From assembly GCA_046350815.1 (NCBI GenBank), contig JAXLZO010000001.1, forward strand, positions 360,001 to 392,000: a stretch of DNA of 32,000 nt, in the 5' to 3' direction. This stretch comes from Candidatus Saccharimonadota bacterium (lineage in GTDB: Bacteria > Patescibacteriota > Gracilibacteria > BD1-5 > UBA2023). This document shows, in pieces, positions 1-32,000 of the stretch. A model generated the notes under the pieces. It ran no database searches. It saw only the letters and a list, made by a program, of their open reading frames with translations, and was not told where the DNA came from. The first letter of the stretch is position 1, and each line of letters starts with the position of its first letter. The position numbers and the translations under genes are program-made.

Positions 1-483
1 ATTCTCATTGATGCAAACTTCTCTCCAGTTATATCAGTTACCTATGATATTCATAGTGTTCGTTCTGGTGAAGTGATCAATCTTGATAGTCTTGACATGG
101 TTGTGAAGACAACAGGTTCTCTCTCTCCTGATGATGCCGTAAAGTTTGCAGCAAATATGCTCCAATCATACGTCGCACTCTTCAATGAGAATGCACGTGA
201 AGTGGAACCGGGTTTTCTCGCAGATCCAAAGGCAATTCTCGAACATGAGAGTGCACAGCGCGTGCACGATGCTGAACGTGAAGCATATACTCCGATCGAG
301 ATTCTCGGACTCTCTCCAAGAACTCTCAATGCACTCGTCAATGGTGAAATCCTCTCAATTGAGGGGCTCACAAAATGTACAGAGGCAAAGCTTGGAAGTA
401 TCAAGTGATTTGGTCGAAAAGCTATGACAGAGGTTCGTGATGCACTTGCTGAACGCGGCCTCAAACTCTTTTGAGATGATTAA
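1..483 (+). CDS. rpoA: DNA-directed RNA polymerase alpha subunit, C-terminal part (5' end lies outside the window)
   Basis: Frame 1 is open from base 1. The sequence is alpha-CTD-like (PIEILGLSPRTLNALVNGEILSIEGL). Two in-frame TGA codons (406-408, 472-474) are read as Gly, and the real stop is TAA 481-483. rplQ follows, as in alpha operons. Confidence 0.88.
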
Positions 484-494
484 CACTCCATATT

Positions 495-857
495 ATGCGC
501 CATCAAAAACGCAAGTTTCTTAAATTTAAAAATAAAGATCAGTCCCATCGCGATTCTATGCTTCGCAACTTGGTGACTGCTATCTTTACTCACAAATCGC
601 TCATCACAACTGAAAAGCGAGCTCGTGCCATTATTCCAATGGTCGACAAGCTTATTCATGCGGCACAGGCTGACAATAAAATGAATGCCATTCGTACCGT
701 TATGCAGGTTGTCTACACTCAGGAATCTTCTGAAGAGCTTTTTGGAACGGTTGCTCCGGCAATGATCGGTCGATCTTCTGGCTTTACTCGTATCACTCCA
801 ATCAAGTATCGTGATGGTGATCGTGCAAAACTTGTTAAAATTGAATTCGTATCATAA
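495..857 (+). CDS. rplQ: 50S ribosomal protein L17
   Basis: 120-aa ORF starting MRHQKRKFLKFKNKDQSHRDSMLRNL..., typical of L17, directly after rpoA. Confidence 0.95.
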   Translation: MRHQKRKFLKFKNKDQSHRDSMLRNLVTAIFTHKSLITTEKRARAIIPMVDKLIHAAQADNKMNAIRTVMQVVYTQESSEELFGTVAPAMIGRSSGFTRITPIKYRDGDRAKLVKIEFVS

Positions 858-862
858 TTATT

Positions 863-1297
863 ATGCAAAAAACACTTGTAGCACCTCAAATTGCTTCCCA
901 AGACCGCCCTTGGTTTCTCATCGATGCTGAAGGTAAGACTCTTGGTCGACTTGCAACTCAGGTTGCTCGATTGCTTACTGGTCGCAATCGTGTGGATTAT
1001 ACTCCGCACAATGACAATGGCGCTCACGTTATTATTCTGAATGCAGCAAAGATTCGTGTTTCTGGATCGAAGATGCAACAGAAGCTATACCGAAGCCATT
1101 CTCAATTCATGGGTGGACTCAAAGAAGTGAGTCTTGAGAGAATGCTTGTAAAAAAGCCTCTCTTCGTTCTTGAACATGCAATTTCAGGTATGATTCCAAA
1201 GAATCGACAGCGTCAAGACGTTCTTAAACGTCTTCGACTTGAGATTGGGGGAACTCATCCATACGATGCTCAAAAGCCTCAAACTATCACTCTCTAA
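863..1297 (+). CDS. rplM: 50S ribosomal protein L13
   Basis: 144-aa ORF with PWFLIDAEGKTLGRLATQVARLLTG, an L13 signature. Paired with rpsI. Confidence 0.95.
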   Translation: MQKTLVAPQIASQDRPWFLIDAEGKTLGRLATQVARLLTGRNRVDYTPHNDNGAHVIILNAAKIRVSGSKMQQKLYRSHSQFMGGLKEVSLERMLVKKPLFVLEHAISGMIPKNRQRQDVLKRLRLEIGGTHPYDAQKPQTITL

Positions 1298-1311
1298 GCC
1301 TGTCATTCGTT

Positions 1312-1704
1312 ATGGAAAAGAAATATTTTTACGCAATTGGTCGTCGTAAGACGGCAACTGCTCAGGTTCGTCTCTTTGCTGATAAGGGTTCATCTCTTAT
1401 CAATGGACGTCCATTCAATGAGTATATTTCTCGCTCAGACCTTTTCGCTCGACTTCTTAGTCCATTGAAAATTGCATCTTTGCTTGATAGTACTCACTTT
1501 GAGGTTCAGGTAAATGGTTCAGGAATCTCTGCTCAAGCTGATGCAATTGCACTCGGTCTTGCTCGTGCAGTTATTCTCCTCGATCCTGCTCTTCGTCCAC
1601 AACTCAAGGGTGCAGACCTTCTGAGTCGAGATGCGAGAAAGGTAGAGCGCAAAAAACCTGGTCTCCACAAAGCACGCAAGGGCCCTTCTTGGTCAAAGCG
1701 TTAG
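1312..1704 (+). CDS. rpsI: 30S ribosomal protein S9
   Basis: 130-aa ORF with YAIGRRKTATAQVRL and a C-terminal ...SKR, typical of S9. Confidence 0.95.
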   Translation: MEKKYFYAIGRRKTATAQVRLFADKGSSLINGRPFNEYISRSDLFARLLSPLKIASLLDSTHFEVQVNGSGISAQADAIALGLARAVILLDPALRPQLKGADLLSRDARKVERKKPGLHKARKGPSWSKR

Positions 1705-1722
1705 TATTTTACCCTACTTTGC

Positions 1723-2145
1723 ATGCCTACTATTAATCAATTGATTCGTAAGCCTCGAACTGACAAGTCTCGTAAGAGCAAGTCCCCGGCGCTTCAATAT
1801 ATCAAAAACTCTATTGCACGAGATCTTCGTGATCAAGTGGCTCCTCAGAAACGAGGTGTTTGTACAAAGGTATATACAACGACTCCAAAAAAGCCAAACT
1901 CGGCTCTTCGAAAAGTTGCAAAAGTACGTCTTACCAATGGTCAAGAAGTGATCTCTTATATCGGTGGCGAAGGACACAATCTCCAAGAACATTCCGTTGT
2001 TCTTATTCGTGGAGGTCGTGTAAAGGATCTACCAGGTGTACGATATCATATCGTTCGTGGTGTTCTTGATTGCCAAGGAGTTGATAAGCGTCGTCAAGGT
2101 CGCTCGCTCTACGGTAACAAACGTCCAAAAGCTGCTAAAAAATAG
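1723..2145 (+). CDS. rpsL: 30S ribosomal protein S12
   Basis: [12 protein letters not shown]... and [19 protein letters not shown] are S12 hallmarks. Confidence 0.97.
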
Positions 2146-2162
2146 TATAAAATTCTGAAATT

Positions 2163-2639: not shown

Positions 2640-2918
2640 ATGGCTCACAAAAAAGCTCAATGATCGACCGCCAATGGTCGTGATAGTAACGCCAAACGAC
2701 TTGGTGTAAAAATCTTCGGTGATCAACCTGCCATTGCTGGTAACATTATTGTTCGTCAAAAGGGCAATAAGTTCTGGCCTGCAGAAGGTGTGAGTCAGGG
2801 TTCTGACTTTACACTCTTCGCTACTCGTGATGGCATGGTAAAGTTTACTGAAAAGAAGCGTGTTCGTTTCGACGGACGCACTTACAAAGACCTCTACATA
2901 TCAGTTGTTCAGGCATAA
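2640..2918 (+). CDS. rpmA: 50S ribosomal protein L27
   Basis: Absent from the ORF track because codon 8 is TGA (2661-2663). With TGA=Gly it reads [45 protein letters not shown]..., a clear L27. Stop is TAA 2916-2918. Confidence 0.9.
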
Positions 2919-3081: not shown

Positions 3082-3402
3082 TTAGTTTCAACCATATGGT
3101 ACGATTGTTGCTCAAATTGTTTTACCAAATCCTGTGGGTCAGTAGTAGCCAATTATCCTAACAATCAGTGGTAAAAAGGCGACTACTAATCCAGCACTTA
3201 CCAAACCAAATGCACCACCGCCTAAAAACAGGGCTTTTTTCACACGTACTACTTTGGGGACTGTAAGCTCGGTAAATTGCTTATCAAACCTTTGACTTTG
3301 CATACGATTAGCTTTTTTGGTATCTGCAAATAGTTTATCAATGGTTTTAGGTTTTAAAGTTGGTACTTTTTTGGATCTGAGCTTATTCAAAAAACTATTC
3401 AT
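3082..3402 (-). CDS. Small tail-anchored membrane protein, unknown function. It ends at 3139 if TGA terminates and at 3082 if TGA=Gly.
   Basis: ATG at 3402 lies 5 nt after a GGAGG Shine-Dalgarno, which host genes here lack. The N-terminus is basic and there is one C-terminal TM helix (ALFLGGGAFGLVSAGLVVAFLPLIV). TGA at 3139-3141 sits right after the helix. The 19-codon read-through tail contains 3 more TGA codons. Confidence 0.5.
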
Positions 3403-3473
3403 TTCAACCTCCGACACTTAATTCAGCTTCTAAATCAGCCAACATTTTTTGCTGTCGTTGATACTCCACCCAT

Positions 3474-6456: not shown

Positions 6457-7146
6457 ATGGCACTCCAGACAACTGATTTTTGTCTCATTCGCAAAACACA
6501 ACTCACCCATGATGTGTTTGAGCTTGTATTCTCTGGTCCAGTGTGGGATGTCCCGAAGGCTGGTCAATACATCATATTTGTGTTGCTACAGACTAAATTA
6601 CGACGCTCGTATTCTCTCGCAAGTTATCAGAATGGAGAATATACTTGTATCATCAAGAGGCTCGAAGATGGACAAGGTGGAAGCAAAGAGATATGCGATC
6701 TCCCCTTAGAGTCTTGTGTCCCTACCATCTGACCTATTGGACATTTTACCCTCAGTGAAGGTGATAAGACTCGTGCCTATATCGGTACCGGAACAGGGTT
6801 TGCCCCCGTCTATTTTCAGGCACGATCGAGTGTTGAGCGTGGAGATCGATCGAAGCAGATATTTGTCTATGGTGTACGAAGTGAACAAGATCAATTCTAC
6901 CTGGATCAAATTGCTCATCTTTCTGAGGTTTCCTCACAATTTTCATCTTGCTTCTATCTATCACGTCCAAAGATAGTATGATCCTCAGTGCATACTGGTT
7001 ATGTGACCGATTGGATTACTGGGGAAAATATTAGTGGGATTGAAGAATTCTACCTTTGTGGAAGTCCTGCTATGGTCAAGGACGCTCGTGCAAGACTCGA
7101 GGAATTGGGAGTGCCGAAAGAATGTGTGAAATTCGAACAATTCTAA
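6457..7146 (+). CDS. Ferredoxin-NADP reductase-like FAD/NAD(P)-binding oxidoreductase
   Basis: Joined across TGA 6730-6732 and a second TGA near 6976. Motifs: RRSYSLAS (RxYS FAD motif), TI-G-PIGHF (GPxG), GTGTGFAPV (NAD(P) binding) and YLCGSPAMV. 229 aa, TAA stop. Confidence 0.8.
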
Positions 7147-7174
7147 AAAAACATATCCATTGGATATGTTTTTT
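7146..7174. terminator. Bidirectional intrinsic terminator between convergent genes
   Basis: 13-bp stem AAAAACATATCC.../...GGATATGTTTTT with a 3-nt loop. An A-run on one side and a T-run on the other. Confidence 0.6.
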
Positions 7175-7181
7175 AGTTGCT

Positions 7182-8150
7182 TACTTTGTAGTAGTACCTT
7201 CCGTTTCAAGGGATCAGAGGAGTTTCAGGGGTAATATCTCCTATAGAATCAGAACTATTGGCTCTTTGTTTGGTTTCCGTAGTAGCACCAATAACAAAAT
7301 AAGGTTTTCCATTTTCCCTTGTACCTGTTTTGTAAGAATAGGTTTGTCCGTTAGATCCATCACATCCTGGTCATTTTGTTCAAGATGGATCGAGTACTTT
7401 TGTTGGAATCGGCATGTTTTCAAAAATATTGAGAGGAATACAACCAGAAGAATCTTCAGCTGGATAGCTGCCATGATCCATAAGATAGACTTCAAGATTG
7501 ATAGCAATACTCTCAATTTGGGTAATTCTTCCTGTATCGCGAGCTTTTCCTTGAGCTCATGTAAGTGTTGGTAGGAGCGCTGCAGCTATAATTCCAAAGA
7601 GAAATAAGAGGGGAATAATAAGTGCTGCAATGATTACAAGTGCTTTCTTTCATCCGGTTAGAGGTCTTGGATTAGTATCATCACCTTTTTCATAGTGAAA
7701 TGCTGTAACAGGGAAAATAATAAAGCCAGCAAAGAGGAGTCATACTGTCCACCAACCTCCATGCCCAGTTCGTTTGGAAATACCATGATTCAGTTTTACG
7801 TATCCTATGAATCATAGGATACAACTCATTGGTATGGCAATAAGAGCAAACACTCATTGACTGGGTGATAGTCATTCTTTCAGGCCAGCACCCATCATAA
7901 GTATAATGAGAGTGATCGGTAAGATAAGTGCTGGAAGTAGGAGCCATTTCACTCCCCATAAAAAACTTTTCCCTGCAATCCAGAGCTTATTGAACCAATT
8001 AAGGATAGGAATAAACGCAAACCAACTATTTTCAATCTCCATCTTTTTTGAAAGAATATATTGGCAGTAGGCGTAGAAAATAAAGAAAATAAGTGGCAGG
8101 ATAAAAGAAGATATTCCTATACTGCCGAAATAATTACTATCTGGATACAT
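7182..8150 (-). CDS. Polytopic membrane protein (DUF5684-like N-terminal part) fused to a type IV pilin/pseudopilin-like domain
   Basis: 322 codons re-joined across 9 in-frame TGA codons with no TAA/TAG. The N-terminus has WFAFIPILNWFNKLWIAGKSFLWGV... and further TM helices. The C-terminus IIAAALLPTLTGAQGKARDTGRITQIESIAINLEVYLMDHGSYP resembles pilin alpha-1 plus the start of the head domain. Confidence 0.7.
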
Positions 8151-8188
8151 ATGTGAAAAAGGAAAAAAAACAGAGAAAGTATATTTTT

Positions 8189-8941
8189 GGGTCTAAACCA
8201 GTTGACAGGATAAATTATCCCATAAACTTGGCTCTATGATCAGTAAAACTACCTATAGGAAAAAATCACGAATTTGAGATGCAAAAATAAGAGAAATTGT
8301 GAAATATTTTTCTCTGGATTTTACTTCAGATAAAACAGCGGTATTAACAGGTCTCAATCCAAAAACAACACAGGATTGGTATAGATATATCAGAAAGGCG
8401 ATAGCCTTTCTCTGTGAGAGAGAAAAGAATGAAATATGGACTGGAAATGTTGAGATAGATGAGAGTTACTTCTGACCAACAAGAGTCCGATGAAAGAGAG
8501 GAAGGTGAGCTGGTATGAAGACAATAGTCTTTGGTTTACTCAAAAGAAACTGAAAAGTATATACTGAGATAGTTCCTGATGTAAAAGCAAGGACTCTCGT
8601 GCCAATCATTCGATGAAAACTTCGTATAGAAGAGTCTGAGATTAACAGTGATGGATGGTGAGCTTATGATGGGCTTGTAGATATTGGATATGAGAAACAC
8701 TACCGTGTTCATCACGGAGCAAATGAATTTGCAAGATGAACTCAACACATTAATTGAATAGAGTCATTTTGGAGTTATACCAAAAGAAGACTCTCTCAAT
8801 TCAATGGAATCAAGAAAGTCTACTTCTACTATTTTTTGAAAGAATCTGAATTCAGATATAATTGTCGTATTCAATGAAAAGATATTTATAAGGAAGTGCT
8901 AAAGTTACTTCGTCAATATAACCCGTAACTGGTTTAGACCC
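8189..8941 (+). mobile_element. IS1595-family insertion sequence, copy 1 (753 bp)
   Basis: 15-bp terminal inverted repeats GGGTCTAAACCAGTT. Flanked by the 7-bp direct repeat TATTTTT (8182-8188 and 8942-8948). By my base-by-base reading it is the exact reverse complement of 12850-13602. Confidence 0.9.
8236..8928 (+). CDS. IS1595-family (ISXO2-like DDE) transposase
   Basis: 230 aa with 10 in-frame TGA=Gly. ...EIDESYFGPTRVRGKRGRGAGMKTIVFGLLKRNGKVYTEIVPDV...HINGIESFWSYTKRRL...FYYFLKESEFRYN matches the family core. Confidence 0.9.
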
Positions 8942-8978
8942 TATTTTTTAAAAATTAAAAGTAAAATACACGAAAAAT

Positions 8979-11900
8979 ATGAATCAAGAACTTTTTCAGC
9001 AAGAATACGATCGTCTCAATGATGCTCAAAAACAGGCGGTAGATACGATCTATGGTCCGGTTATGGTTATTGCTTGACCGGGATCAGGAAAAACCCAACT
9101 TCTCTCACTGCGCATTGCAAATATTCTGAGGATTGCTGATAGTTGACCAGAGTCAATCTTGTGTCTTACATTCACTCATTCTGCTGCAGAGACCATGCGA
9201 AAGCGCCTCATGAAGATAATCGGAGCTCTCGCTTATCGGGTGGAGATTCATACATTTCATAGTTTTTGAGCTGAACTTTTGGCGCGTATTCGAGGTGTAC
9301 TGATTGAGAACGATCTCGATAGTGAATCACTTGTTGATGCTCAAATTGTAGGTGATCTCCGTGTTGTAGCACTTCTTGATGATCTACTCTCGAGTCTCTC
9401 ATCGACGAGTCCTCTGTATGGAATACTCAATCCTCCTGGGGATGATCGTCTCAATTCGATTCGCAAGCTCAAATCAACTTTTGGTGATCTCAAGAAATCA
9501 AATATTTCTTGAGAAACCCTTGAAGTAATTATTGGAGATATGTCTTCGGGGATCGATATGATTCGAGATCTGAGTTATAATTTCGTTCGATCGTTGGATC
9601 AATATGGTGTGCGATCACAAGCTGACAAAGATGCACGTTTTCGTCTTTTTGAATCCTATGTTCATGATCTGCAGACAACGCTCTGAGATGCACCAAAATT
9701 GATTGGTGATCATGAATCATTTGCAACTGCTTGGATGAAGATTGTCAAAAACACTATTGAGGCAATGACAGAAAATGAGAAGCTCACAATCAGTCCTCTC
9801 TCAGATTTTATTAAAAAATATCTTTTTGATGAGAAGAGCGATGCGTTTCTGTGGGATAAGGAATTACGAAAAACACAGGAATTTCTCACGCTCTATCGTC
9901 ATTATCAGGATATGATGAATGAGCGAGGATATCATGATTTTGATGATCTTCTTCTGCAAGCACATTGAGAAATCCTCGCATCTCCTCTCTTGCGGCAAGA
10001 ACTCGCTGAGCGATATGAATGGATTCTGATTGATGAATTTCAAGACACCAATGATATTCAGCTCTCACTTGCTACATCATTTCTCGAAGATATAGATTCC
10101 CCCAATATCCTAGTGGTTGGTGATGATGATCAGGCAATCTACAAATTTCAGGGTGCGAGCAGTATTAATTTTGAGCGATTTGTTCAAAAATATAGTGATA
10201 CTCAGGTCATCGTACTTGAGTATAATTACCGTAGTCTCGCACCAATCATAGAACACTCTCGATCACTCATGAGTGATCTCGTCTCTCCAATCGAGAAGCT
10301 TTTCCAGGATGTTTCCAAGTCGTTTTTATCATATCGATCAGGTATAGGGGGCGAGGAGGGATGACGTGTTGAATATATTCTTGCAGAGAATCCGATTGAT
10401 CAAGCTATCTTTGTTGTGGAGTCTATTCAAGAATATATTAAGAATGGTGGACAATATGCAGACATTGCGATTCTTTCACGCAAGAATCGATCACTCCAAC
10501 AATACCTTGGTATCCTTACACATGCAAATATCCCCGTGCAAACAACCGCGGATGAATACATATCGAAGAATGATAGTGTTCTTCTCTTAGTGGATATCCT
10601 CACTGTTATCACAGGTCTTGCATGATATATCAGTCAGGATATTACAAGGTCTGCGTGTATCAATGTGCTTGTGAGTAATCTTTGGTGATTGGATCGTCGA
10701 CAAATATGGGAAATTCTCTCCGACAAATCACTTCATTTTCTATCACCGACTGAATTCCTTCTCAGGATTATTGATCGTTCCCTCGGCACATCATCAGCAG
10801 AATTTGCTCAATTCTTCCTCGATATAGCTTCACTTCATCAATCAGTTCGTCTTGATGATATACTCGATATGGTGACAGGAGCTTCGCCGATTCTCTTTCC
10901 TCTTGAGCAAGACGGTATCACTACAGATGGACAGATAGTGTTGTTTTGATGAGCTCATAAGCAAGAACGTGTCTCTCCATTCTATCAGCGCATAATTCTC
11001 GACATTATGTCATCTTCTCCAGCACTTGCAGCAGATCGACTCTCAAATATTGATGTTTTTCTCAAAGATCTGAAGAACTTTGTTCGACAGGAGAACGTGT
11101 ATTCTCTTTCTGCTGTTGCGGACTATTTGATCCTCGGGAAGAAGTATGGATGGGCAGCAAAGAGCTCCAAACTCTTCCTTGGTGGACAGGAGAGTGTGAC
11201 TTTGTCCACGATTCACAAGGCAAAATGACAAGAATACAAGAAAGTCTTTATGATCGACACGACTGCTGATGAATATCGTGATCGAAGTCAGTCAAGTCTC
11301 TTGCCAAAATACATACTTCCACCGAGAGAGCCACAAGATATTGATGATGAACGAAGGCTTGTCTATACCGCTTTTACTCGAGCGGAGAATGAACTCACTA
11401 TTCTTTCGCTTTGACAAGGTCTCGATGAGCGACCAAAGAATCAGATTATGTCTTTGGCAAATATCAAATTCGACACACTCCCATCCTATAATATTGCTCA
11501 GCGCTCTCTCTATCTTCCATTTCTTCGTAAATCCCCAGATTCACTCTTGGTTGATATCAGTAGTGATGAGAAAGAATTTTTGCTTTCTCGGATCGCGAAT
11601 CTCTCTATGAATGCAACACTCTTCTCGGCATTCTTTCAGATTGCCGAAGATGGTCCAGCGGAATTTATATCGCGCCACATTCTCAAACTCCCATGAGCAC
11701 AGAGTGAGGCGCAGATTTATGGGAATGCTTTCCATGCAGGATTGGAAGCATTTGTTCAAGACTACGAAGCGAGAAAAATATATGATGAAAAGAAATTTTT
11801 TACCGCAGCATTTGAATTACTTGATAAGAGTGATCTGCTCGATCCAAGACGCGTATACTACAAGAGTGAGCTCACAACGCATTTTCCTATGGTATTTGAA

Positions 11901-12753: not shown

Positions 12754-12849
12754 TTATCTATCTATCCGATCAGAACATTCATTTTCTGAATATTTATTGA
12801 ATTTTGACAAGAGAAAATAAGTTCAATTAATTGCATTTAGTATAATAAT

Positions 12850-19587: not shown

Positions 19588-19842
19588 ATGGATCTCCCTT
19601 CGTTGGAGGAGTATATGGGTTCTCTCATAGCTCCTCTTTTGCGTTCTTGAGTTACTCCCGATATTCTTCAAACTCAAGATTCTCTGGGTATTCTACTCAT
19701 TATTCATGTAGATAAAACTGACTTGGCGTATCTTATTTGATCGCAAGGCAAGACAATTGCTGCCTTGCGAGTGATGGCTCGGGCCTATGGTTCACGAAAT
19801 CGTCTACCAGTAAGCTTGAAAATTTTGGAAAAGCGTGTATAA
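19588..19842 (+). CDS. khpA: KH-domain RNA-binding protein (KhpA/YlqC-like)
   Basis: 84 aa joined across 2 TGA codons. LI-G-SQGKTIAALRVMA matches the KH GxxG core (the G is TGA 19738-19740). The position after rpsP is conserved. Confidence 0.8.
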
Positions 19843-20344: not shown

Positions 20345-21478
20345 TGTTAAATTGCAGCGTCAAGTTTACATTTCATAAACTTCTGAAACTTCATACATCA
20401 TCGAATAGTGATTCAGACTCTCTCGCGTAAGCGAGGGAGTTTTGTATAAGAGAGTATCCTATTCGTTCAGCAGGAGTCATACCAAACATACCAAGTCCAC
20501 TGTGAGGTTTTCTATGATTGTAGTAATCAGTAAAAAGCTTGAGTTTGTATCGATATTCATGGATATCTATTTTCAATGAGTATTCTCAAAGATTCTGCCA
20601 AAGAGTTCTATGATACCTCTCTACCTTCCCATTGTGCTGTGGAGTATAGGGAGCATTTCTTTTGTGTTGTATTCAGAGTCTGACAAGAAAGTCAGTGAAT
20701 CATTTTCCAAACTCAGATCAACAATCCGTACGTATGGTTTGTATAGGAAAAGGTGAAGCGTCTATGAGATTGAGTACAAACTCCATACTCGAACGTACAC
20801 ATTGCTCACTGTGAACTCTTGAGAAGACAAACCTACTACAATCATCGATCGCATCGTATTGAACTTCTCTTCTACTGCGTCAGAAAGGAAAGCAAACATC
20901 TAACTGTATTTCTCTTCCTGGTTGATCAAGAACATAGAGTGTTTTACGTCGTTGCCTCCATTCTCATTTTCTCTTGTAGCGAACTCACGTTCGTGAGAGA
21001 ATTCTATAGATGGTGGATTGATTGAGAGAAATCTTTGTTTCTTCTTGAAGCTTCCATGAGAGACTCCTTGGTCAAAGCTCTGGATATCTTCGTGCGAGAT
21101 TCCCTACCATCTCTTCTACTACTTGATTGGTTCGATTCACTGGAATATTCTTCTTCGGTCAACATCGCTTTGGAACTACTCAAGCTTCTTACTCTATACG
21201 ATAGCGAGCTAACCACTTACTCACGCTTTGACGAGAGACCGAAAGAAGAGAAGCCACTTCGTGGACTTTCTTCGCTCCATCAAGAATTTCTTGAAGAAGT
21301 TTTATTCTCATTTGCAACATAGAAAAACAAAGATATCTTGGTCACATGGAGATAGGATGATAAGATAATGATAAGACACAAGGTTTGAACACCTCACCAT
21401 CATTCTATCTCCTTTTTCATTTCCTCCCTTTCATGACAAGAAGGGAATGATGTAAACCTAATTGCTGCAATTGTAACA
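20345..21478 (-). mobile_element. IS481-family-like insertion sequence (about 1134 bp)
   Basis: Imperfect terminal inverted repeats TGTTAAATTGCAGC...GTTTACAT / TGTTACAATTGCAGC...GTTTACAT. Flanked by a perfect direct repeat (A)GTTTTATAAAAAAAT at 20329-20344 and 21478-21493. Confidence 0.75.
20394..21320 (-). pseudogene. IS481-family DDE transposase (HTH + rve), interrupted by one in-frame TAA and lacking a TAA/TAG stop inside the element
   Basis: 309 codons with 10 TGA=Gly. ...SRQSVSKWLARYRIE-TAA-EAGVVPKR..., IQLDV, AIDDCSRF, RTDCGSEF, YTPQHNGKVERYHRTL, YNHRKPHSGLG. The TAA is at 21189-21191. After ...FDDV only TGA codons follow until beyond the left end. Confidence 0.7.
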
Positions 21479-21553: not shown

Positions 21554-24100
21554 ATGGAAACCAATTCTTCTGATATTTCTGACATTTCTTCTTCAGATCT
21601 TCACCCAATCGTTTATCAAGGCGATGAATCACGCTCGATCGTTGATGAGATGCAAAAATGTTACCTCGAATATGCGATGTCTGTGATTGTGCAACGTGCT
21701 CTCCCAGATGTTCGTGATGGTCTCAAGCCGGTACATCGCCGTATTCTTTATGCTATGCATGATACAGGGTTGCGAGCAAATGGAAAATTTCGTAAATCCG
21801 CTACAGTTGTCGGTGAGGTGCTGGGTAAGTACCATCCACACGGGGATACAGCTGTATATGATGCTATGGTTCGAATGGCGCAAGATTTCTCTATGCGTTA
21901 TCTTCTGGTTGATGGTCAATGAAATTTTGGTTCAATTGATGGAGATAATGCTGCAGCAATGCGTTATACGGAGGCAAAGATGTCACCTCTTGCAGAGATG
22001 TTGCTCGCAGATATTGACAAAGATACGGTAGATTGGCGTCCAAACTATGACGCATCTAAGGAAGAACCAATGGTATTGCCCGCTCGAGTTCCATCACTCT
22101 TGCTAAATGGAGTTGTTGGTATTGCAGTTGGCATGGCAACTAATATTGCCCCACATAACCTTGCTGAAGTTATCAATGCATTGATTTATCTGCTTGACAG
22201 TGGTGATACTCAGACCGTTACGATAGATGATCTGATGCAATATATTAAGGGTCCTGATTTCCCTACCGGTGGCATCGTATATAATCGAAAGGATATTGCG
22301 CAAGCATTTGCAACAGGTCGTGGTTCGATTGTGTTGCGTGGACGAGCGGTATTTGAAGAGGATTCAAAAGGGCGAGTATCGATTATTATTACCGAAATTC
22401 CATACCAACTCAATAAATCTACATTTGTTGCGAAGATTGCTGAGCTTGTCACTGAAAAAATTATTGTTGGTATTTCGGATCTTCGGGATGAATCAAATAA
22501 GGATGGTATTCGTATCGTGATAGAATTGAAGCGAGATGCATTCCCAAAGAAGATCCTCAACCAACTTTATAAACTCACACCACTTCAGACATCGTTCAGC
22601 TATAATATGATTGCTCTCGATGATCGCGGGATGCAACCAAAGCTTTTCAATCTGAAAGAGATTCTTGAAAGTTTTCTCCAACATCGACGTGAAGTAGTCA
22701 CTCGTCGTGTGAGTTATGAACTTCGAATAGCAGAGGCACGCGCACATATTCTCCAGTGACTCAAGATAGCACTTGATCATATTGATGAGGTGATTAAGAC
22801 GATTCGATCGAGTGTGAGTCGGGAAGAGGCGAATATTCTTCTCTGTGAACGGTTTGGACTTACAACGATTCAAGCTCAAGCAATTCTTGAAATGCAACTT
22901 CAGCGCCTCTCGGGGTTAGAGCGACAAAAGATTGAAGATGAGCTTGCCGAGAAACTTGCATTCATAGCGGATTGCCTTGATATTCTTGCAAAACCTGAGC
23001 GTGTAACGGCTATTATGCGAGAAGAATTACTTCTTATTCGAGAGAAATTCTCTGATCCAAGACGTACTGAGGTTGTCTCTGGTATGATTGGTGAATTTAA
23101 TCCACGTGATACGATTCCAAATGAAGAAGTAGTTATCACCCTTTCGAAGAATTCTTACATTAAGCGAATTAAATCTTCTGCATTTCGCACCCAAAAACGA
23201 GGTGGAAAATGAGTGACGGTTGGTCTAAAGGATGAGGACGAAGTTTCAATCATTCTCTCGACAACAAACCATAATGATCTCTACTATTTTACGAATACTG
23301 GTCGAGTATTTCGCTTACCTGCTTATGAGATACCAGAGGCATCAAGAACGACAAAATGACAACCACTCATTAATTTTATCGCCCTTCTTAAGGATGAAAA
23401 GATTACAGCAATTCTTGATCCATCAACACAACAAATCAAACATCTTGCTCTTATATCACGAAATGCGCTTATTAAACGAATTGATTTCAGTGAAATAACA
23501 AACATTCGTTCAAATGGTCTCATTGTTATGAAGCCAAAAGAAAATGATGAACTTGCTTGGGTAAAGGTAACAACCGGCGATGAAAATATTCTCGTTGTAT
23601 CAAAGAAAGGGAAGGCAATTCAATTTCATGAGACAGATGTTCGTGTAATGTGAAGAGCTGCAGCTGGTGTTCGTGCTATGCGTATGTCAGCAGGAGATGA
23701 GATAGTTGAAGCGGATGTTGTCTCACACGATGGTAAATTTGTGTTCATTGTCACAGAGAAATGAATGGGAAAGATATCTGAATGTAGTGAGTACCGTGAA
23801 CAGGGGAGAGGTTGATCAGGCGTGAAAGCTGGAGCGGTAACACCAAAAACCGGTGATATTATCTATGTATCATTATTGACAGAGGAACTTAAAAAGGACG
23901 CGTCTGTTATTCTCATGAGCCGAGATGGTCAAACGGTCCGCGTACCACTCTCAACCGTGAGAACAACTTCTCGAGTGACACAGTGAGTGATTCTTGCAAA
24001 ATTGAAAAATCCAAAAGACTCATTCATCTCGGTTGTAGTAGTGACGACAGCGGATCAAGAAGATGAAGAAGGAAATGAGAATGAATCAGTTGCTGAGTAG
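21554..24100 (+). CDS. gyrA: DNA gyrase subunit A
   Basis: 848 codons joined across 8 TGA codons. ...[29 protein letters not shown]...[49 protein letters not shown]. The C-terminal blades carry a recurrent G at TGA codons. TAG 24098-24100. Confidence 0.95.
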
Positions 24101-24159: not shown

Positions 24160-24174
24160 CTTTATAAAAATGTG

Positions 24175-24256
24175 ATTGAAAGTATATACGAGAGTATTAT
24201 ATTCTGAAGAAATGGTGAATTCTTTGGATTCTCTCCGTTTTGTATATACTTTCAAT
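24175..24256. repeat. 15-bp perfect inverted repeat separated by 52 nt in the permease 5' region
   Basis: ATTGAAAGTATATAC (24175-24189) and GTATATACTTTCAAT (24242-24256). Pairing can extend about 4 bp inward with G-U pairs. Confidence 0.8.
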
Positions 24257-24274
24257 ATTCGCATTTTCCTCATT

Positions 24275-25486
24275 ATGAATCAAGATCTTGTCCTTTTTCT
24301 CCAGAAACTCTTAATTGTTGTTGGAGCAGTCATTCTCTTTCTTTTTTTTAAGTCATTTGGGGCACTCTTTGCACCAGTTGTTATCGCATTTATTTTGAGC
24401 CTCTTTTTTGTCCCACTTTTGGATAAGCTCAATAAATATCGAATTGGTGATTGAGTGGGTATTTTTGTTTCCCTCTTTGTATTTATTGTTTTTCTCTCAA
24501 CGATTATTTTCTTGGTTGTACCAATTTTTGTAAGAGAACTTATCAAATTCTTTGACGTTATCAATCGTTATATCATCAAAGTACAAACGGCCGTTTTTCA
24601 GTGAGATTTTTCTACCTTAGGACTTCCGGATTGGATGATAGGATATATTCATGATTATGCATCTACACAAGATATTAATAATCTTTTAACGACACTTTCA
24701 GCAAACACGAGTCAAATTGTTTCTTTTATTTCTGGAAGCGCAACGAATGTATTACAGGCATGAAAGGGAATATTTGTTTCAGTGGCGAGCACAACCTTTC
24801 TTATTGCGACAACTACTATTCTCACGGTATTTTTTCTCATCGAGCGAAAAAGGGTAGCATATGTTATACGATCATTGGTTCCACAGAATTGGTCTTTGGA
24901 ATATGATACGATCGTACATGAGTCATATTCAATCATTGGAAAGTGGGCAAAAGGACAGATGATTCTCTCATTCTCTATCTTTTTACTTACTTTCGTCCTC
25001 TTGCATCTTGCGAATGCAATGTTTGGGCTTTGATTGACGAATATTGGTACACTTGCATTTCTTGCAGGGCTTCTGGAAAATATCCCTTACCTTGGTCCAG
25101 TACTTTCACTCATACCTGCATTGGCTATTGCTTTGGGTATTTCAACAAAGGCGACTATTATTGTGGTGATTATCTATATTCTCATTCAGCAAGTTGAGAA
25201 TAATCTTCTAGTACCTCAGGTTATGTCTAAGGCCCTCTCTATATCACCACTTCTCACAATTATTGTGATGTTTATAGCTACGGGAGTACTTGGGCTTCTT
25301 GGTACTCTCTTTGCAGTACCACTGACAGCACTCATAGAGCTTCTCTATCATCGATGGCAAATAAAAAGAACAAATGGCGCCTGAATGTTACATGATGTAC
25401 TTTCTGTGAGGGAGTCTCGCGCATATAACTCGCTCATAGCACGCCTCTATCGATCGACGAAGAAATTTGTTCTTCGAAAAAAATAA
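24275..25486 (+). CDS. AI-2E family transporter (PerM/UPF0118-like permease)
   Basis: 403 codons joined across 5 TGA codons with multiple TM helices. ...AGLLENIPYLGPVLSLIPALAIAL...IYILIQQVENNLLVPQVMSKALSISPLLTII...LLGTLFAVPLTA. The start is uncertain (ATG 24275 or ATG 24212). TAA 25484-25486. Confidence 0.8.
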
Positions 25487-25496
25487 TTTATCCACT

Positions 25497-26210
25497 ATGT
25501 CTCTCAAAAACAAAGATTATGAAAGCGTGCTCGTGGTAGAAGATGATGCAACCATTCTCTCCATGATTGGAACATATCTTTCTCGTGAGGGTTTTCTCCC
25601 GCTTCTTTGTGATAATGGGAGAAAAGCAAAAGATATATTCCTTCATAATCCACCTGATATCATCATTCTTGACATCGGCCTTCCAGAAGTAGATGGTATG
25701 ACATTAACAAAATTATTTCGATCAAAATCACAAGCTCCTATTATTATCATATCAGCACGACCCACAGAGGATGATAAGGTTTATGCACTTGAAATTGGGG
25801 CTGATGACTATCTCGTAAAACCATTCTCTCTTCGTGAGTTGGTTGCGCGCATCCGTACTATTATGAAGCGCCGTACATTAATTGTATCAGAGTCAGAAGC
25901 AATCAATCAACGCAAAAATATTACCTATCAAGGAATTATTCTCAACCCAAATCTCTATACGATTGGAAGTAAAAATCAAGAGACACATCGATTGACAAAA
26001 TCAGAATTTGATATTCTCTACTTTCTTTGTCTTCATCCGGATCAGGTAGTTGAACGTGATACTCTTATGCGTGAAATCATGGGATATGGAAACTACCTCT
26101 ATGACCGCACGATTGATACACATATCAAAAATCTCCGCAAGAAAATCCCGCCTTCTATCGTGATACAGACTATTCGTTGAGTAGGCTATATTATTTCGAA
26201 GAAACTATAA
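25497..26210 (+). CDS. OmpR-family response regulator
   Basis: Receiver domain VLVVEDD...DIIILDIGLPEVDG...ADDYLVKPF. The winged helix ends ...IQTIR-G-VGYII (G is TGA 26178-26180). TAA 26208-26210. Confidence 0.9.
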
Positions 26211-27568
26211 TGACACTGAAATTTCGATTCTCTCTTTTTCTCATTCTCACACTTATCTTCGTTATTCTCTCCAATCTTCTTGCTGTGAGAATTTCTACAC
26301 TGCGTCATTTTGAGGATTATAGACAGGAAGTGAGTGAGCTTTCAGCTCAAAAAAGTTTCAAACTTCTTAAACAAGTACTCAACCCAACAACTTCGAGTGG
26401 AGATATCGTATCGGAGTATCAGTGAGTGTTTCGTGATCTCAATCATATTGATGAAACGCTGCTACATGTGGAATCATCTCTTCCATCATCATCTTCAGAT
26501 CAATGAATAGATACATGAGAAGAATGAACAACGAAAAAACGAGAATTTCTTTCATTTTCAGATTTTCTTGCATCGATAGCACTTTTTTCCCCGAAGTTTT
26601 TTGGTGATTATGACGTATTTTCTGGTGATACTCCTGAAGCTCATTTGTTTCAGAAAATATTAAAAGATCTTGTGATTTTCAACCTGGTACTTCTTTCCTT
26701 TTGTCTCATTGCTTGGTCATATCTTTTTCGTCGAAACCTTGCCCCTATTAATGCTCTTCAGTTGAAAGTAAGTCAGGCAGCTCAAACATGAGAATATTTC
26801 CCCATTCGATATCTTCCAAGGGATGAATTTTCCCCTCTTGTTGAATCTATTAATCAGCTCATGTCCGTAATTTGACAAGAAGAGAGTACAAGATCTCAGT
26901 TTATTAGTGATTTATCACATGAAATACGGACACCACTTATGGCACTTTCGTGTCTCTGTGAGGCTCTTTCTGATGGGGTTATTCCTCTGAGTCAACATGA
27001 GATAGAAAATATTCGTATGCAAGTAAATCGTATACAAAAGATTTCTGAACAAATATTGCAGTATCAAAAACTTGAATACAGAGAAGATGGAGATAGTCTT
27101 CAGCGTGAAGTGATTGATATAGAAGAGTTTTATGAAAAAATGATAGCAATATATCAAGAACTTCTGTCTAAAAACTATCAATCTACTCGTTTTGTCTCAT
27201 GAATACAAAAATTTATCGTTGCAGATCCTATTGGTCTTGAAAGAATATTTCATAATATTTTTACAAATTTTCTCAAATATGCCGGGAATAATACACTTCT
27301 TTCTCTTCGTGTTGTTCAAAAAAAGAACATGGTGCATATCATTATAGAAGATAATGGTGTTGGAACGAGTGAATATGATCTTTCACATCTTCATCAAAAA
27401 TTCTACCGTGTTCGTAGTGACCGCCCAATGATAAATGAGGAATTCCAAGGAGCATGACTTGGTTTATCCATTGTCTCTCGAGTTATGCAACAACATGGTG
27501 GCTTTATGAAGCTGGAACATACATATAGATGACACGGTCTCAGAGTCATTCTTGCATTTCCTGAATAA
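26210..27568 (+). CDS. Sensor histidine kinase (2 TM helices, HAMP-like, HisKA, HATPase_c)
   Basis: 452 codons joined across 9 TGA codons. H-box FISDLSHEIRTPL, N-box FHNIFTNFLKYAG, G1 IEDNGVG, G2 GA-G-LGLSIV. The ATG overlaps the RR stop (ATAATG). Confidence 0.85.
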
Positions 27569-29718: not shown

Positions 29719-30567
29719 ATGGCACTAAAAAAATATCGCCCTACGACGCCAAGTCGTCGTCAAATGACGGGTTACTCATTTGATGAGATCACAACAAGCA
29801 CTCCGTATAAGCCACTTACAACTCGTATCAAGACTCATGCGGGACGAAACAATACTGGTACTATTACCGTACGTCATCAAGGTGCAGGTCATAAGAAACG
29901 CTACCGTCTCGTTGATTTTGCTTTTACTGGCAAGCTCAATGTACCAGCAAAAGTTGAAACAATCGAATACGATCCATATCGAACTGGCTATATCGCACTC
30001 GTTTGTTATTATGATGGAGAGAGACGATACGTGCTTGCCCATAAAGACATGAAGGTAGGCGATGTGATTATCACTGCTGAAACGGCAAAGCCAGTTGCAG
30101 GAAATCGTATGAAGATTGGTAATATTCCAGTTGGACTTGCGATCTATAATCTTGAACTTATTGTCGGGCAAGGAGCATCAAGTGTTCGATCTGCTGGATC
30201 GAGTGCAATGGTGAGTTCACAAGAAGGTGAGTATACACAAGTAAAAATGCCCTCTGGTGAAATACGAAAAATTCACAAGAATTGTTACGCAACTATTGGT
30301 GTTGTATCTAATACAGATCATAACCAAATTGTGATTGGTAAAGCAGGTCGTTCTCGATGGATGGGTATTCGTCCTACGGTACTCGGTTCATCTATGAATG
30401 CTGTAGATCATCCACATGGTGGTGGTGAGTGACATCAATCTCTCGGTCAACGAAAAGGTCCAAAGACTCCTTGGGGAAAACTTGCTCGTGGTGTCAAAAC
30501 TCGACGACGCAAAGATACCAATCGTTGGATTGTTCGTACACGAGCTGGTAAGCTTCTCAATCCTTAG
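29719..30567 (+). CDS. rplB: 50S ribosomal protein L2
   Basis: 282 codons. ...[28 protein letters not shown]..., where TGA 30430-30432 falls on the conserved Gly. TAG 30565-30567. Confidence 0.95.
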
Positions 30568-30585
30568 TCCCTTTCTCTTCATCTT

Positions 30586-30849
30586 ATGTCACGAAGTCTT
30601 AAAAAAGGACCATATATTGCGGAAAAACTTGTCAAAAAGATTCATACTTTGAATACTTCAGGCAAAAAGACCATCATTAAGACATGGTCACGAGATTGTA
30701 CGATTACTCCTGAGTTTGTTGGACACACATTTGGTGTTCACAACGGCAAGGCTCATACTCCTGTATTTGTTACAGAAGATATGGTCGGGCACAAACTTGG
30801 AGAATTCTCTTTCACCCGCAAGTTTACTGGTCACGCTGGTAATAGATAG
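30586..30849 (+). CDS. rpsS: 30S ribosomal protein S19
   Basis: [15 protein letters not shown]...[29 protein letters not shown]. Confidence 0.95.
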
Positions 30850-30863
30850 TTTTTTTCAACGCT

Positions 30864-31190
30864 ATGAAATCATATATTCGAAACGCTCGAATCTCACCTC
30901 GAAAAATGCAGGTGATTGCTGCTATTGTCCGTAACATGGATGTAAAGCAAGCGCTTGATACACTCCAATTTATGCCACAGAAATGAGCTCTTATCCTTTA
31001 TAAGGGTCTTCATTCTGCTACTGCAAATGCAGAGCATAATGATATGCAAGAACGAACAAACCTCGTTATTGAGAGTTTGGTTGTAAGTAAGGGAGTGGTA
31101 TACAAGCGATTCAATCCTGTTTCTCGTGGGCGAGCTCACCCAATCAAGAAACGAACTTCCAATGTTTCTATTTCTCTTTCCGTAAAATAA
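30864..31190 (+). CDS. rplV: 50S ribosomal protein L22
   Basis: Absent from the ORF track because of TGA at codon 41. MKSYIRNARISPRKMQVIAAIVRNMDVKQALDTLQFMPQK-G-ALILYKGLHSATANAEHN... TAA 31188-31190. Confidence 0.9.
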
Positions 31191-31194
31191 TCCT

Positions 31195-31827
31195 ATGGGA
31201 CACAAAGTTAGCCCTCTGGCATTCCGTATTGGATATATTAAAACATGGAAGACTTCTGGTTTTTTTGACAAGAAGGAGTATGGATCAAATGTTTCAACTG
31301 ATCTTAATATTCGATTTTTTGTACAATCATTCCTCAAAGGACTTCCTATTGCAAATATTTTTATCTCTCATACAAGCACTGGTATCTCTATTGTGATCTA
31401 TACGTCACGTACGGCACTTGTTCTCGGTGAGGGTGATGAAAATGCAACAAAACTTCAATTAGCTATCCAAAAGAAGTTTGGAAAAATCGCCACAATTGAG
31501 GCAAGGGAGGTAAAAAAACCTGAACTTTCTGCAGATTTAGTCGCTGATTCTATTGCTCGACAAATCGAAAAGAAAATGCCATATCGACGAGTTATTAAAA
31601 ACGCGATTGCTCGATCTCTTGAGAAAGGTGCACTTGGAATCAAAGTTATTCTTTCTGGTCGTATTAATGGTGCGGAAATCGCTCGTCGTGAAACCTACAA
31701 AGAAGGAAATATCCCAACACAAACTATCCGAGCTGATATTGACTACGCTACAGAGCGATCAGAAACAGTAGCTGGTACAATTGGCGTTAAGGTATGGGTG
31801 TACAAAGGGGAGGTCTTCAAAAAATAG
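31195..31827 (+). CDS. rpsC: 30S ribosomal protein S3
   Basis: MGHKVSPLAFRIGYIKTWKTSGFF... with KH and S3-C regions. Confidence 0.95.
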   Translation: MGHKVSPLAFRIGYIKTWKTSGFFDKKEYGSNVSTDLNIRFFVQSFLKGLPIANIFISHTSTGISIVIYTSRTALVLGEGDENATKLQLAIQKKFGKIATIEAREVKKPELSADLVADSIARQIEKKMPYRRVIKNAIARSLEKGALGIKVILSGRINGAEIARRETYKEGNIPTQTIRADIDYATERSETVAGTIGVKVWVYKGEVFKK

Positions 31828-31867
31828 TTTTGACAATTTGCTTATTTCTCTATAATTAGGGTCGTTT

Positions 31868-32000
31868 ATGTTACAGCCATCACGGGTTAAATACCGCAAA
31901 CCTCAACGTGGGGTCATTCGTGGAATAGCTGTTCGTGGTTCTACAGTTGCTTTTGGTGCATTTGCATTGAAGACTGTTGAGCCAGGATATCTGAATTCCC
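31868..32000 (+). CDS. rplP: 50S ribosomal protein L16, N-terminal part (runs off the window)
   Basis: MLQPSRVKYRKPQRGVIRGIAVRGSTVAFGAFALKTVEPG... Confidence 0.9.
   Translation, partial: MLQPSRVKYRKPQRGVIRGIAVRGSTVAFGAFALKTVEPGYLNS

What the first reader, a model, noticed from the sequence alone, without database searches (positions are those of the whole stretch)
1..32000. UGA is decoded as glycine (table 25) across the window, so the standard-code ORF track fragments about 20 genes
In-frame TGA falls on invariant Gly positions of unrelated, well-known families. Examples: GyrA LVDGQ-G-NFGS (21920-21922); L2 HPHGGGE-G (30430-30432); L27 codon 8 (2661-2663); UvrD Walker A AGPGSGKT (9075-9077); OmpR R-G-VGY (26178-26180); the KH GxxG motif (19738-19740); and IS1595 transposase IN-G-IE (8755-8757). 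There is also an internal control in the LRR array. At the repeat position S/T-I-G-D the Gly is GGA/GGG in most units but TGA in two (15023-15025, 15815-15817). Every re-joined frame stays free of TAA/TAG for up to 1133 codons. Table 25 is known only from Absconditabacteria (SR1) and Gracilibacteria, so this also places the organism.
Basis: partly seen in the sequence, partly recalled or inferred. Interest (0 to 1): 0.75.

Follow-up and report, generated by a model that had tools for sequence, protein, structure and literature searches.

The report
UGA read as glycine (table 25)

Summary
The observation and its interpretation both hold. With only TAA and TAG as stops, the window resolves into 36 genes at 89% coding density. 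Twenty of them carry 106 in-frame TGA codons, and all 36 end in TAA or TAG. TGA means Gly, not Trp. All 8 TGAs in GyrA fall on columns that are 93-100% Gly in 71 GyrAs with no in-frame TGA (chance about 5e-12). The cited positions in L2, L27, OmpR, UvrD Walker A, IS1595 and the KH GxxG motif also align to Gly. In the LRR array the same repeat position is GGA/GGG in 12 units and TGA in 2. Against seven TGA-using relatives, TGA exchanges with GGN (219+25 cells) and almost never with TGG (1 cell). All other codons with enough data are standard, including CGA and CGG = Arg. A GyrA tree nests the window inside a clade of TGA-using MAGs, three of them labelled Gracilibacteria. The tRNA-Gly(UCA) and RF2 loss could not be tested, because neither lies in the window or within about 9 kb of it. 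Table 25 is well documented, so this is a new member of a known kind. Its value is mainly correct annotation.

The parts
1..483 (+). rpoA 3' part (RNA polymerase alpha CTD), 2 in-frame TGA
   Evidence: Pfam RNA_pol_A_CTD: 50.1 bits with Gly vs 47.3 with Trp. One TGA aligns to Asn in E. coli, a variable position in the helix-hairpin-helix.
2640..2918 (+). rpmA (L27), TGA at codon 8 (2661-2663)
   Evidence: Aligns to G, G, S in three solved L27 chains in the AHKKAGGS motif.
3082..3417 (-). Hypothetical small membrane protein, 3 in-frame TGA
   Evidence: ORF model only, no family match.
6457..7146 (+). FNR-like oxidoreductase, 2 in-frame TGA
   Evidence: NAD_binding_1 48.7 bits (Gly) vs 47.8 (Trp). 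FAD_binding_6 is detected only with Gly.
7173..8150 (-). Membrane / pseudopilin-like hypothetical protein, 9 in-frame TGA
   Evidence: ORF model, no Pfam match.
8186..8964 (+). IS1595-family element copy A (transposase 8236-8928, 10 in-frame TGA including 8755-8757)
   Evidence: DDE_Tnp_IS1595 95.2 bits (Gly) vs 84.5 (Trp). HIN-X-IE aligns to Gly in 5 of 6 standard-code homologues, and 7 of 10 TGA positions are majority Gly. It is one arm of a 779-nt inverted repeat.
8979..12380 (+). UvrD/PcrA-type helicase fused to a PD-(D/E)XK nuclease, 1133 codons, 15 in-frame TGA including Walker A 9075-9077
   Evidence: Pfam UvrD-helicase 176.6 (Gly) vs 167.7 (Trp) and UvrD_C 78.1 vs 71.1. Walker A and motif VI TGAs align to Gly of E. 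coli UvrD; four others fall at variable positions S, A, E, E.
12364..12753 (+). YraN/UPF0102 endonuclease-like protein, 1 in-frame TGA
   Evidence: Pfam UPF0102 spans the TGA.
12827..13605 (-). IS1595-family element copy B (transposase 12863-13555, 10 in-frame TGA)
   Evidence: 99% complementary to copy A over 779 nt, with an identical protein.
13646..16024 (+). BspA-type LRR surface protein, 7 in-frame TGA including 15023-15025 and 15815-15817
   Evidence: LRR_5 376 bits (Gly) vs 368 (Trp). The repeat position is GGA/GGG in 12 units, TGA in 2, GAG in 1.
16048..16587 (+). FKBP-type lipoprotein, 2 in-frame TGA
   Evidence: Pfam FKBP_C. The score slightly favours Trp (33.9 vs 30.9), but both TGAs lie outside the matched core.
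19588..19842 (+). KhpA-like KH-domain protein, 2 in-frame TGA including the GxxG motif at 19738-19740
   Evidence: KH_KhpA-B scores 36.7 bits with Gly (above the 32.1 cutoff) vs 28.3 with Trp. The same codon is GGT in L003 and TGA in L005.
19860..20324 (+). T4SS-pilin-like small membrane protein, 2 in-frame TGA
   Evidence: Pfam T4SS_pilin.
20345..21468 (-). Strain-polymorphic insertion carrying an rve (IS481/IS3-like) transposase ORF (20145-21188, 14 in-frame TGA)
   Evidence: rve 41.7 bits (Gly) vs 32.3 (Trp). The segment is absent from an otherwise 98.7%-identical NCBI MAG contig.
21554..24100 (+). gyrA, 848 codons, 8 in-frame TGA including 21920-21922
   Evidence: All 8 TGAs fall on columns 93-100% Gly in 71 GyrAs with no in-frame TGA; 6 of 8 are Gly in E. 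coli GyrA.
24170..25486 (+). AI-2E family transporter (PerM-like), 6 in-frame TGA
   Evidence: The Pfam AI-2E_transport match covers profile positions 3-325 of 327 across the TGAs. Gly 161.4 vs Trp 162.9 bits, so it does not discriminate.
25497..26210 (+). OmpR-family response regulator, TGA at 26178-26180
   Evidence: Aligns to Gly of the R-G-x-G-Y motif in 3 of 3 solved structures that cover it.
26210..27568 (+). Sensor histidine kinase, 9 in-frame TGA
   Evidence: HATPase_c 65.6 bits (Gly) vs 57.0 (Trp). The G-box TGA aligns to Gly in 3 of 3 standard-code homologues.
29719..30567 (+). rplB (L2), TGA at 30430-30432
   Evidence: HPHGGGE-X aligns to Gly in two solved L2 chains and in E. coli L2. 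44 further residues of L2 homology follow the TGA.
30864..31190 (+). rplV (L22), 1 in-frame TGA
   Evidence: The Pfam Ribosomal_L22 match covers profile positions 3-103 of 104 across the TGA. It aligns to Ala in E. coli, a variable position.
16772..16976 (+). tRNA-Asp(GTC) and tRNA-Ala(TGC); with tRNA-Leu(TAA) at 19248-19331 these are the only tRNAs in the window, and none has anticodon UCA
   Evidence: ARAGORN and Rfam.

Best explanation
The window comes from a bacterium of the Gracilibacteria/Absconditabacteria radiation (GTDB class JAEDAM01, most likely the BD1-5/Gracilibacteria side) that uses NCBI translation table 25. UGA is a fifth glycine codon, and only UAA and UAG terminate translation. 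What is shown here: UGA is a sense codon in 20 of 36 genes, it corresponds to Gly and not Trp, it never terminates a gene, and all other codons with enough data are standard. What is inferred from published work on this clade and not tested here: a dedicated tRNA-Gly with anticodon UCA reads UGA, and release factor 2 has been lost, so UGA is no longer recognised as a stop. UGA accounts for about 14% of Gly codons overall. It is almost absent from highly expressed translation genes (2.3%) and enriched in other genes (20%) and in transposases (50-56%). That pattern fits a minor, probably slowly decoded, codon.
For: Gene model: 36 of 36 stops are TAA/TAG, with 106 in-frame TGAs in 20 genes, and Pfam domains are continuous across the TGAs. 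GyrA: 8 of 8 TGAs fall on columns 93-100% Gly in 71 GyrAs with no in-frame TGA. Only 3.9% of GyrA columns are that Gly-rich, so P is about 5e-12. Position-level alignments: L2, L27, OmpR, UvrD Walker A and motif VI, IS1595. Pfam scores favour Gly over Trp by 0.9 to 10.7 bits in 9 of 11 families. LRR paralogue control: 12 GGR, 2 TGA, 1 GAG. Codon exchange with seven TGA-using relatives: window TGA pairs with TGA 45, GGN 25, TGG 1, other 5; relatives' TGA pairs with window GGN 219, TGA 45, TGG 0, other 84; window TGG pairs with TGG 25, TGA 0. In about 18 kb beyond the window ends, 5 of 8 further TGAs align to E. coli Gly and none to Trp. Other codons are standard, including CGA and CGG = Arg. 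The GyrA NJ tree places the window inside the TGA-using clade in 100 of 100 bootstraps. Literature: table 25 is established for these lineages, with tRNA-Gly(UCA) and RF2 loss as hallmarks (PMC8629427; bioRxiv 10.64898/2026.05.24.727570).
Against: No tRNA with anticodon UCA and no information on prfB. The window, about 9.5 kb upstream, about 8.3 kb downstream and the related loci contain no such tRNA, and the rest of the genome is not available. There is no proteomic evidence. Roughly a third of the TGA codons lie at poorly conserved positions, aligned to S, A, E, N, R or D in homologues, and cannot discriminate. Two families (AI-2E -1.5 bits, FKBP -3.0 bits) score marginally better with Trp. 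Placement rests on a single-gene NJ tree and on NCBI MAG labels that are known to be unreliable for this group.
Confidence: 0.96

Rival explanations
1. Table 4: UGA is decoded as tryptophan, as in Mycoplasmatales, several insect endosymbionts and some Eggerthellaceae.
For: UGA is clearly a sense codon and never a stop, which table 4 explains equally well. AI-2E and FKBP Pfam scores are 1.5 and 3.0 bits higher with Trp.
Against: None of the TGA positions checked against standard-code homologues aligns to Trp. GyrA is 8 of 8 on Gly columns. TGA exchanges with GGN, not TGG, among relatives, and TGG never pairs with TGA apart from one cell. Nine of 11 Pfam families favour Gly by 0.9 to 10.7 bits. 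The GyrA tree places the window among CPR genomes, not Mycoplasmatales.
Confidence: 0.01
2. Standard code with damaged sequence: the in-frame TGAs are pseudogene lesions, assembly or sequencing errors, or low-level stop-codon readthrough or selenocysteine sites.
For: Gene calls on record for the same organism's public contigs treat TGA as a stop and list fragments.
Against: There are 106 in-frame TGAs but zero in-frame TAA or TAG in 36 genes, including essential single-copy genes (gyrA, rplB, rpmA, rpoA). No gene ends in TGA. The TGAs are reproduced at 100% identity in independent assemblies from other samples, conserved as TGA in relatives (45 cells), and concentrated on Gly columns. Sec would align to Cys and need SECIS elements, and none of that is seen.
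Confidence: 0.005
3. Absconditabacteria-type extended variant: UGA = Gly plus CGA and/or CGG reassigned from Arg to Trp, as Codetta predicted for Absconditabacteria and some Gracilibacteria.
For: CGG is rare here, 12 codons in 9310. Rarity is typical of a codon in transition, and the lineage is related to those in which the change was reported (PMC8629427).
Against: CGA is a major Arg codon (168 uses) and aligns to Arg in 39 of 51 positions against E. coli and 6 of 8 conserved GyrA columns. CGG lies at GyrA SDL-R-DES (70 of 71 Arg; all 7 relatives Arg), at the histidine-kinase H-box SHEI-R-TPL and in an RGG tail.
Confidence: 0.02

Closest known systems
NCBI translation table 25 (Candidate Division SR1 / Gracilibacteria code; Campbell et al. 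2013, Rinke et al. 2013, as cited in PMC8629427)
   Same: UGA is a sense codon aligned to Gly. UAA and UAG are the only terminators. UGG remains Trp. The organism is a CPR bacterium, and its 40% GC lies within the reported 21-53% range.
   Different: Nothing in the code itself differs. UGA use is modest (14% of Gly codons, 8 in GyrA) compared with 12-56 in GyrA of the related low-GC genomes. tRNA-Gly(UCA) and RF2 loss are not verified for this genome.
Absconditabacteria variant with CGA/CGG -> Trp (Codetta; PMC8629427)
   Same: It shares the UGA = Gly reassignment and the broader clade.
   Different: CGA and CGG are Arg in this window.
NCBI translation table 4 (UGA = Trp; Mycoplasmatales, Hodgkinia, Zinderia, Nasuia, Stammera, some Eggerthellaceae)
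   Same: UGA is read as sense, standard-code gene calling fragments genes, and RF2 loss is expected.
   Different: The amino acid is Gly, not Trp, and the phylogenetic position is unrelated.

Membership tests
Translation table 25 (UGA = Gly) | UGA occurs in frame inside conserved protein-coding genes (sense codon) | tested here: met
   106 in-frame TGAs in 20 of 36 genes, with Pfam domains continuous across them.
Translation table 25 (UGA = Gly) | UGA positions correspond to glycine in homologues from standard-code organisms | tested here: met
   GyrA 8 of 8 on 93-100% Gly columns. L2, L27, OmpR, UvrD and IS1595 motif positions are Gly. Pfam favours Gly over Trp in 9 of 11 families.
Translation table 25 (UGA = Gly) | UGA is not used as a terminator; genes end in UAA or UAG | tested here: met
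   36 of 36 genes end in TAA (22) or TAG (14).
Translation table 25 (UGA = Gly) | tRNA with anticodon UCA carrying Gly identity elements (G1:C72, C2:G71, G3:C70, U73) | not testable with these tools
   The only tRNAs in the window are Asp(GTC), Ala(TGC) and Leu(TAA). There is none in the ~9.5 kb upstream or ~8.3 kb downstream extensions or in related loci. The rest of the genome could not be fetched.
Translation table 25 (UGA = Gly) | Loss of release factor 2 (prfB) | not testable with these tools
   Absence can only be shown on a complete genome. No prfB is present in the roughly 50 kb seen.
Translation table 25 (UGA = Gly) | Phylogenetic membership of the Absconditabacterales + BD1-5 clade (GTDB class JAEDAM01) | tested here: met
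   The GyrA NJ tree nests the window within a clade of 7 genomes with 12-56 in-frame TGAs in GyrA, exclusive clade in 100 of 100 bootstraps; three are labelled Candidatus Gracilibacteria. This is single-gene evidence, and GTDB labels were not available.
Translation table 4 (UGA = Trp) | UGA positions correspond to tryptophan in homologues; UGA interchanges with UGG | tested here: not met
   No Trp at any aligned TGA position. Window TGG never pairs with relatives' TGA and relatives' TGA never pairs with window TGG (0 cells each); window TGA pairs with a relative's TGG in 1 of 76 cells.
Absconditabacteria CGA/CGG -> Trp variant | CGA and/or CGG align to Trp columns | tested here: not met
   CGA aligns to Arg in 39 of 51 (E. 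coli) and 6 of 8 (GyrA) positions. CGG aligns to Arg at GyrA 311 (70 of 71) and at the HK H-box.
Selenocysteine recoding | Isolated UGA at Cys/Sec-aligned catalytic sites, with a SECIS element | tested here: not met
   106 TGAs are spread over 20 unrelated genes and align to Gly. Rfam finds no SECIS or tRNA-Sec.

The most novel reading that the evidence does not exclude
The window and its GC-rich sister genome L001 (JAUPLX010000026; 56.5% GC) may form a branch inside the code-25 clade where rising GC content is removing UGA-Gly codons. UGA makes up most Gly codons of GyrA in some low-GC relatives, about 14% of Gly codons in the window, and none in about 2000 codons of L001. L001's recognisable genes still avoid TGA as a stop. 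If L001 has reached an 'unassigned UGA' state, or has regained RF2, it would be a natural intermediate or a reversal of a stop-codon reassignment, observed within a single clade.
Probability: 0.12. Interest if true: 0.6.

Novelty: new member of a known kind. Interest (0 to 1): 0.3.

Why it matters
The main consequence is practical. Under table 11 this region loses about 40% of its coding capacity and 20 genes break into 126 pieces. The gene calls on record for public contigs of this organism already carry such fragments (GyrA in three pieces, L2 truncated). Re-annotation with table 25 restores the essential genes and places the organism. Biologically, the region adds a 40%-GC, low-UGA-usage representative to the code-25 clade. 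It also shows three quantifiable features of how a reassigned codon is used. UGA is almost excluded from translation-machinery genes. It is enriched in transposases, which could therefore not be expressed correctly in standard-code hosts. And its usage appears to fall with genomic GC across relatives.

Tried and rejected
- Table 4 (Trp), pseudogenes or sequencing errors, selenocysteine, and the CGA/CGG->Trp variant were each tested and rejected (see the rival explanations).
- The KH protein had no relative among solved structures. The claim was settled by the Pfam Gly vs Trp scores and by relatives' codons instead.
- A first OmpR search with too strict a threshold returned nothing and was repeated.
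- Harvesting homologues of non-GyrA genes from the 80 GyrA-centred loci gave almost nothing from standard-code genomes.
- I searched for tRNA(UCA) in the window, in both extensions of the source contigs and in eight related loci, and found none. This says nothing about the rest of the genome.
- A first tree attempt with Biopython's distance calculator timed out and was redone with numpy.
- L001's code status could not be resolved. Its four recognisable genes end in TAA or TAG and it has no in-frame TGA, while the ORFs that end in TGA have no family match and lie antisense to real genes.

Full report
**Observation**

The window is 40.1% GC. The TGA trinucleotide is about twice as common as TAA and three times as common as TAG on both strands.

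Under table 11 the ORF list is a mosaic of short pieces. With only TAA and TAG as stops, the window resolves into 36 genes:
- rpoA 3' end, L17, L13, S9, S12, S7, L27
- two hypothetical proteins, a DEAD-box helicase, an FNR-like reductase, a membrane protein
- IS1595 copy A, a UvrD-type helicase/PD-(D/E)XK nuclease, YraN, IS1595 copy B
- a BspA-type LRR protein and an FKBP
- tRNA-Asp and tRNA-Ala (not counted among the 36 protein genes), EF-Tu, S10, tRNA-Leu, S16, a KhpA-like KH protein, a T4SS-pilin-like protein
- an rve transposase, GyrA, an AI-2E transporter, an OmpR-type regulator, a histidine kinase, a hypothetical protein
- L3, L4, L23, L2, S19, L22, S3

Twenty genes carry in-frame TGA: 106 codons, or 96 without the duplicated IS. 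The longest rejoined frame is 1133 codons. All 36 genes terminate in TAA (22) or TAG (14), and none in TGA. Pfam domains run uninterrupted across the TGAs. Coding density is 0.89 under this model and about 0.50 if each gene is reduced to its largest TGA-free piece.

**Which amino acid**

I kept TGA masked as X in all queries, so the alignments could not be biased.

*GyrA.* I recovered 80 related loci from the species-representative genome collection. Seventy-one GyrAs have no in-frame TGA, and seven have 12-56. In a MAFFT alignment, all 8 TGAs of the window's gyrA fall on columns that are 93-100% Gly in the 71 sequences. In the seven TGA-using relatives, the same columns contain only TGA or GGN. 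Only 3.9% of GyrA columns are at least 90% Gly, so 8 of 8 by chance is about 5e-12.

| Position | Result |
|---|---|
| L2 HPHGGGE-X | Gly in two solved structures and in E. coli |
| L27 codon 8 | G, G, S in three structures |
| OmpR R-X-VGY | Gly in 3 of 3 |
| UvrD Walker A and motif VI | Gly in E. coli UvrD; four other TGAs at variable positions (S, A, E, E) |
| IS1595 HIN-X-IE | Gly in 5 of 6 standard-code plasmid homologues; 7 of 10 TGA positions majority Gly, none Trp |
| KH GxxG | No solved relative. Pfam KH_KhpA-B scores 36.7 bits with Gly (above the cutoff) vs 28.3 with Trp. The same codon is GGT in L003 and TGA in L005. |

*Gly vs Trp translations scored against Pfam.* Gly wins in 9 of 11 families by 0.9 to 10.7 bits. 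AI-2E (-1.5) and FKBP (-3.0) are marginally the other way.

*Internal control.* At the S/T-I-G-D position of the BspA repeat, 12 units use GGA/GGG, 2 use TGA (15023 and 15815), and 1 uses GAG.

*Codon-level exchange with the seven TGA-using relatives, over all shared genes:*

| Comparison | TGA | GGN | TGG | Other |
|---|---|---|---|---|
| Window TGA -> relative's codon | 45 | 25 | 1 | 5 |
| Relative's TGA -> window codon | 45 | 219 | 0 | 84 |
| Window TGG -> relative's codon | 0 | 0 | 25 | 7 |

*Beyond the window.* In about 18 kb of sequence past the window ends, 5 of 8 further TGAs align to E. coli Gly and none to Trp.

**Other codons**

I ran a Codetta-style tally on conserved GyrA columns and on 13 ribosomal, EF-Tu and RpoA proteins against E. 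coli. Every codon with adequate counts keeps its standard meaning. CGA is Arg (39 of 51; 6 of 8). The 12 CGG codons include GyrA SDL-R-DES (70 of 71 Arg), the kinase H-box SHEI-R-TPL and an RGG tail. The CGA/CGG->Trp change that Codetta reported for Absconditabacteria and some Gracilibacteria (PMC8629427) is therefore absent.

**Organism**

The best GyrA matches (54-71% identity) are CPR MAGs labelled Gracilibacteria, "Peribacteria", Peregrinibacteria or Patescibacteria. In an NJ tree of 47 GyrAs, the window, its sister L001 and the seven TGA users form an exclusive clade in 100 of 100 bootstraps. The window is nested within the TGA users in 100 of 100. Three of the users are labelled Candidatus Gracilibacteria. 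Together with CGA/CGG = Arg, this places the organism in the known code-25 clade (GTDB class JAEDAM01, per the gTranslate preprint), probably on the BD1-5/Gracilibacteria side.

The same organism occurs in several public data sets. Logan SRR26348422 matches at 100% identity, and the NCBI MAG GCA_964536125.1 at 98.7%.

**Mechanism**

Shown here: UGA is sense, it corresponds to Gly, it is never a terminator, and the remaining code is standard.

Inferred from the literature on this clade: a tRNA-Gly(UCA) decodes UGA, and RF2 has been lost. Neither could be tested. The window has only tRNA-Asp, tRNA-Ala and tRNA-Leu. The extensions and related loci contain no tRNA(UCA). The tools do not allow the rest of the genome to be fetched.

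**Usage pattern**

UGA is 14% of Gly codons overall. It is 2.3% in translation and transcription genes (5 of 215; EF-Tu 0 of 39) against 20% in other genes (Fisher p = 8e-12). It reaches 50% and 56% in the IS1595 and rve transposases. This fits a minor codon that highly expressed genes avoid.

**Verdict**

The finding is correct in both observation and interpretation. The phenomenon itself is well documented, with hundreds of table-25 genomes known. This is a new member of a known kind, and its main value is correct annotation and taxonomic placement. Interest is low to moderate.

Noticed in passing
window 8186-8964 and 12827-13605: Two IS1595-family copies, 779 nt and 99% complementary, lie in inverted orientation. 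They bracket 3.9 kb carrying the UvrD-type helicase/PD-(D/E)XK nuclease and YraN genes, a composite-transposon-like arrangement. Short-read contigs of the same organism break exactly at these copies.
   Followed up: partly
window 20345-21468: A segment of about 1.1 kb carrying an rve (IS481/IS3-like) transposase ORF is absent from the otherwise 98.7%-identical NCBI MAG contig CAZHVP010000018.1, so the insertion is strain-polymorphic. About 25 bp aligns to both flanks. The transposase ORF lacks a start codon and reads out of the element into the antisense strand of the pilin-like gene, so it may be defective.
   Followed up: partly
L001 (JAUPLX010000026.1), whole 8.4 kb: By GyrA this is the window's sister genome (70% identity, 91% bootstrap) and it nests inside the TGA-using clade. 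It is 56.5% GC and has no in-frame TGA in about 2000 codons. Its four recognisable genes (GyrA, CTP synthase, a reverse transcriptase, a weak Fib_succ match) all end in TAA or TAG. It could be code 25 with UGA removed by GC pressure, an unassigned UGA, or a reversion. This is unresolved.
   Followed up: partly
whole window, per-gene codon counts: TGA-Gly is nearly excluded from ribosomal-protein, EF-Tu and RpoA genes (2.3% of Gly codons) and from the DEAD-box helicase (0 of 53). It makes up 20% elsewhere and 50-56% in the two transposases. The mobile elements are the most code-25-dependent genes in the region.
   Followed up: yes
window 13646-16024: The BspA-type LRR surface protein has an N-terminal region with a near-identical tandem duplication of about 90 residues (...[24 protein letters not shown]...), each copy carrying a TGA at the same position. 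In two LRR units a TGA replaces the Pro of the otherwise conserved T-I-P-N-S motif.
   Followed up: no
L082, L086, L087 (public contigs of the same organism): The gene calls on record treat TGA as a stop. GyrA is listed as 122+266+140 aa fragments, L2 as 237 aa, IF-2 as 197+280 aa, and RpoA as 238 aa. Public protein sets for this organism are therefore fragmented.
   Followed up: partly
window 1-2918 and 17413-19842: The gene order is unusual: rpoA-L17-L13-S9-S12-S7-L27, and EF-Tu-S10-tRNA-Leu-S16-KH, both separated from L3-L4-L23-L2-S19-L22-S3. It is nevertheless conserved in the TGA-using relatives L003, L004, L005 and L007. fusA is not between S7 and EF-Tu.
   Followed up: no
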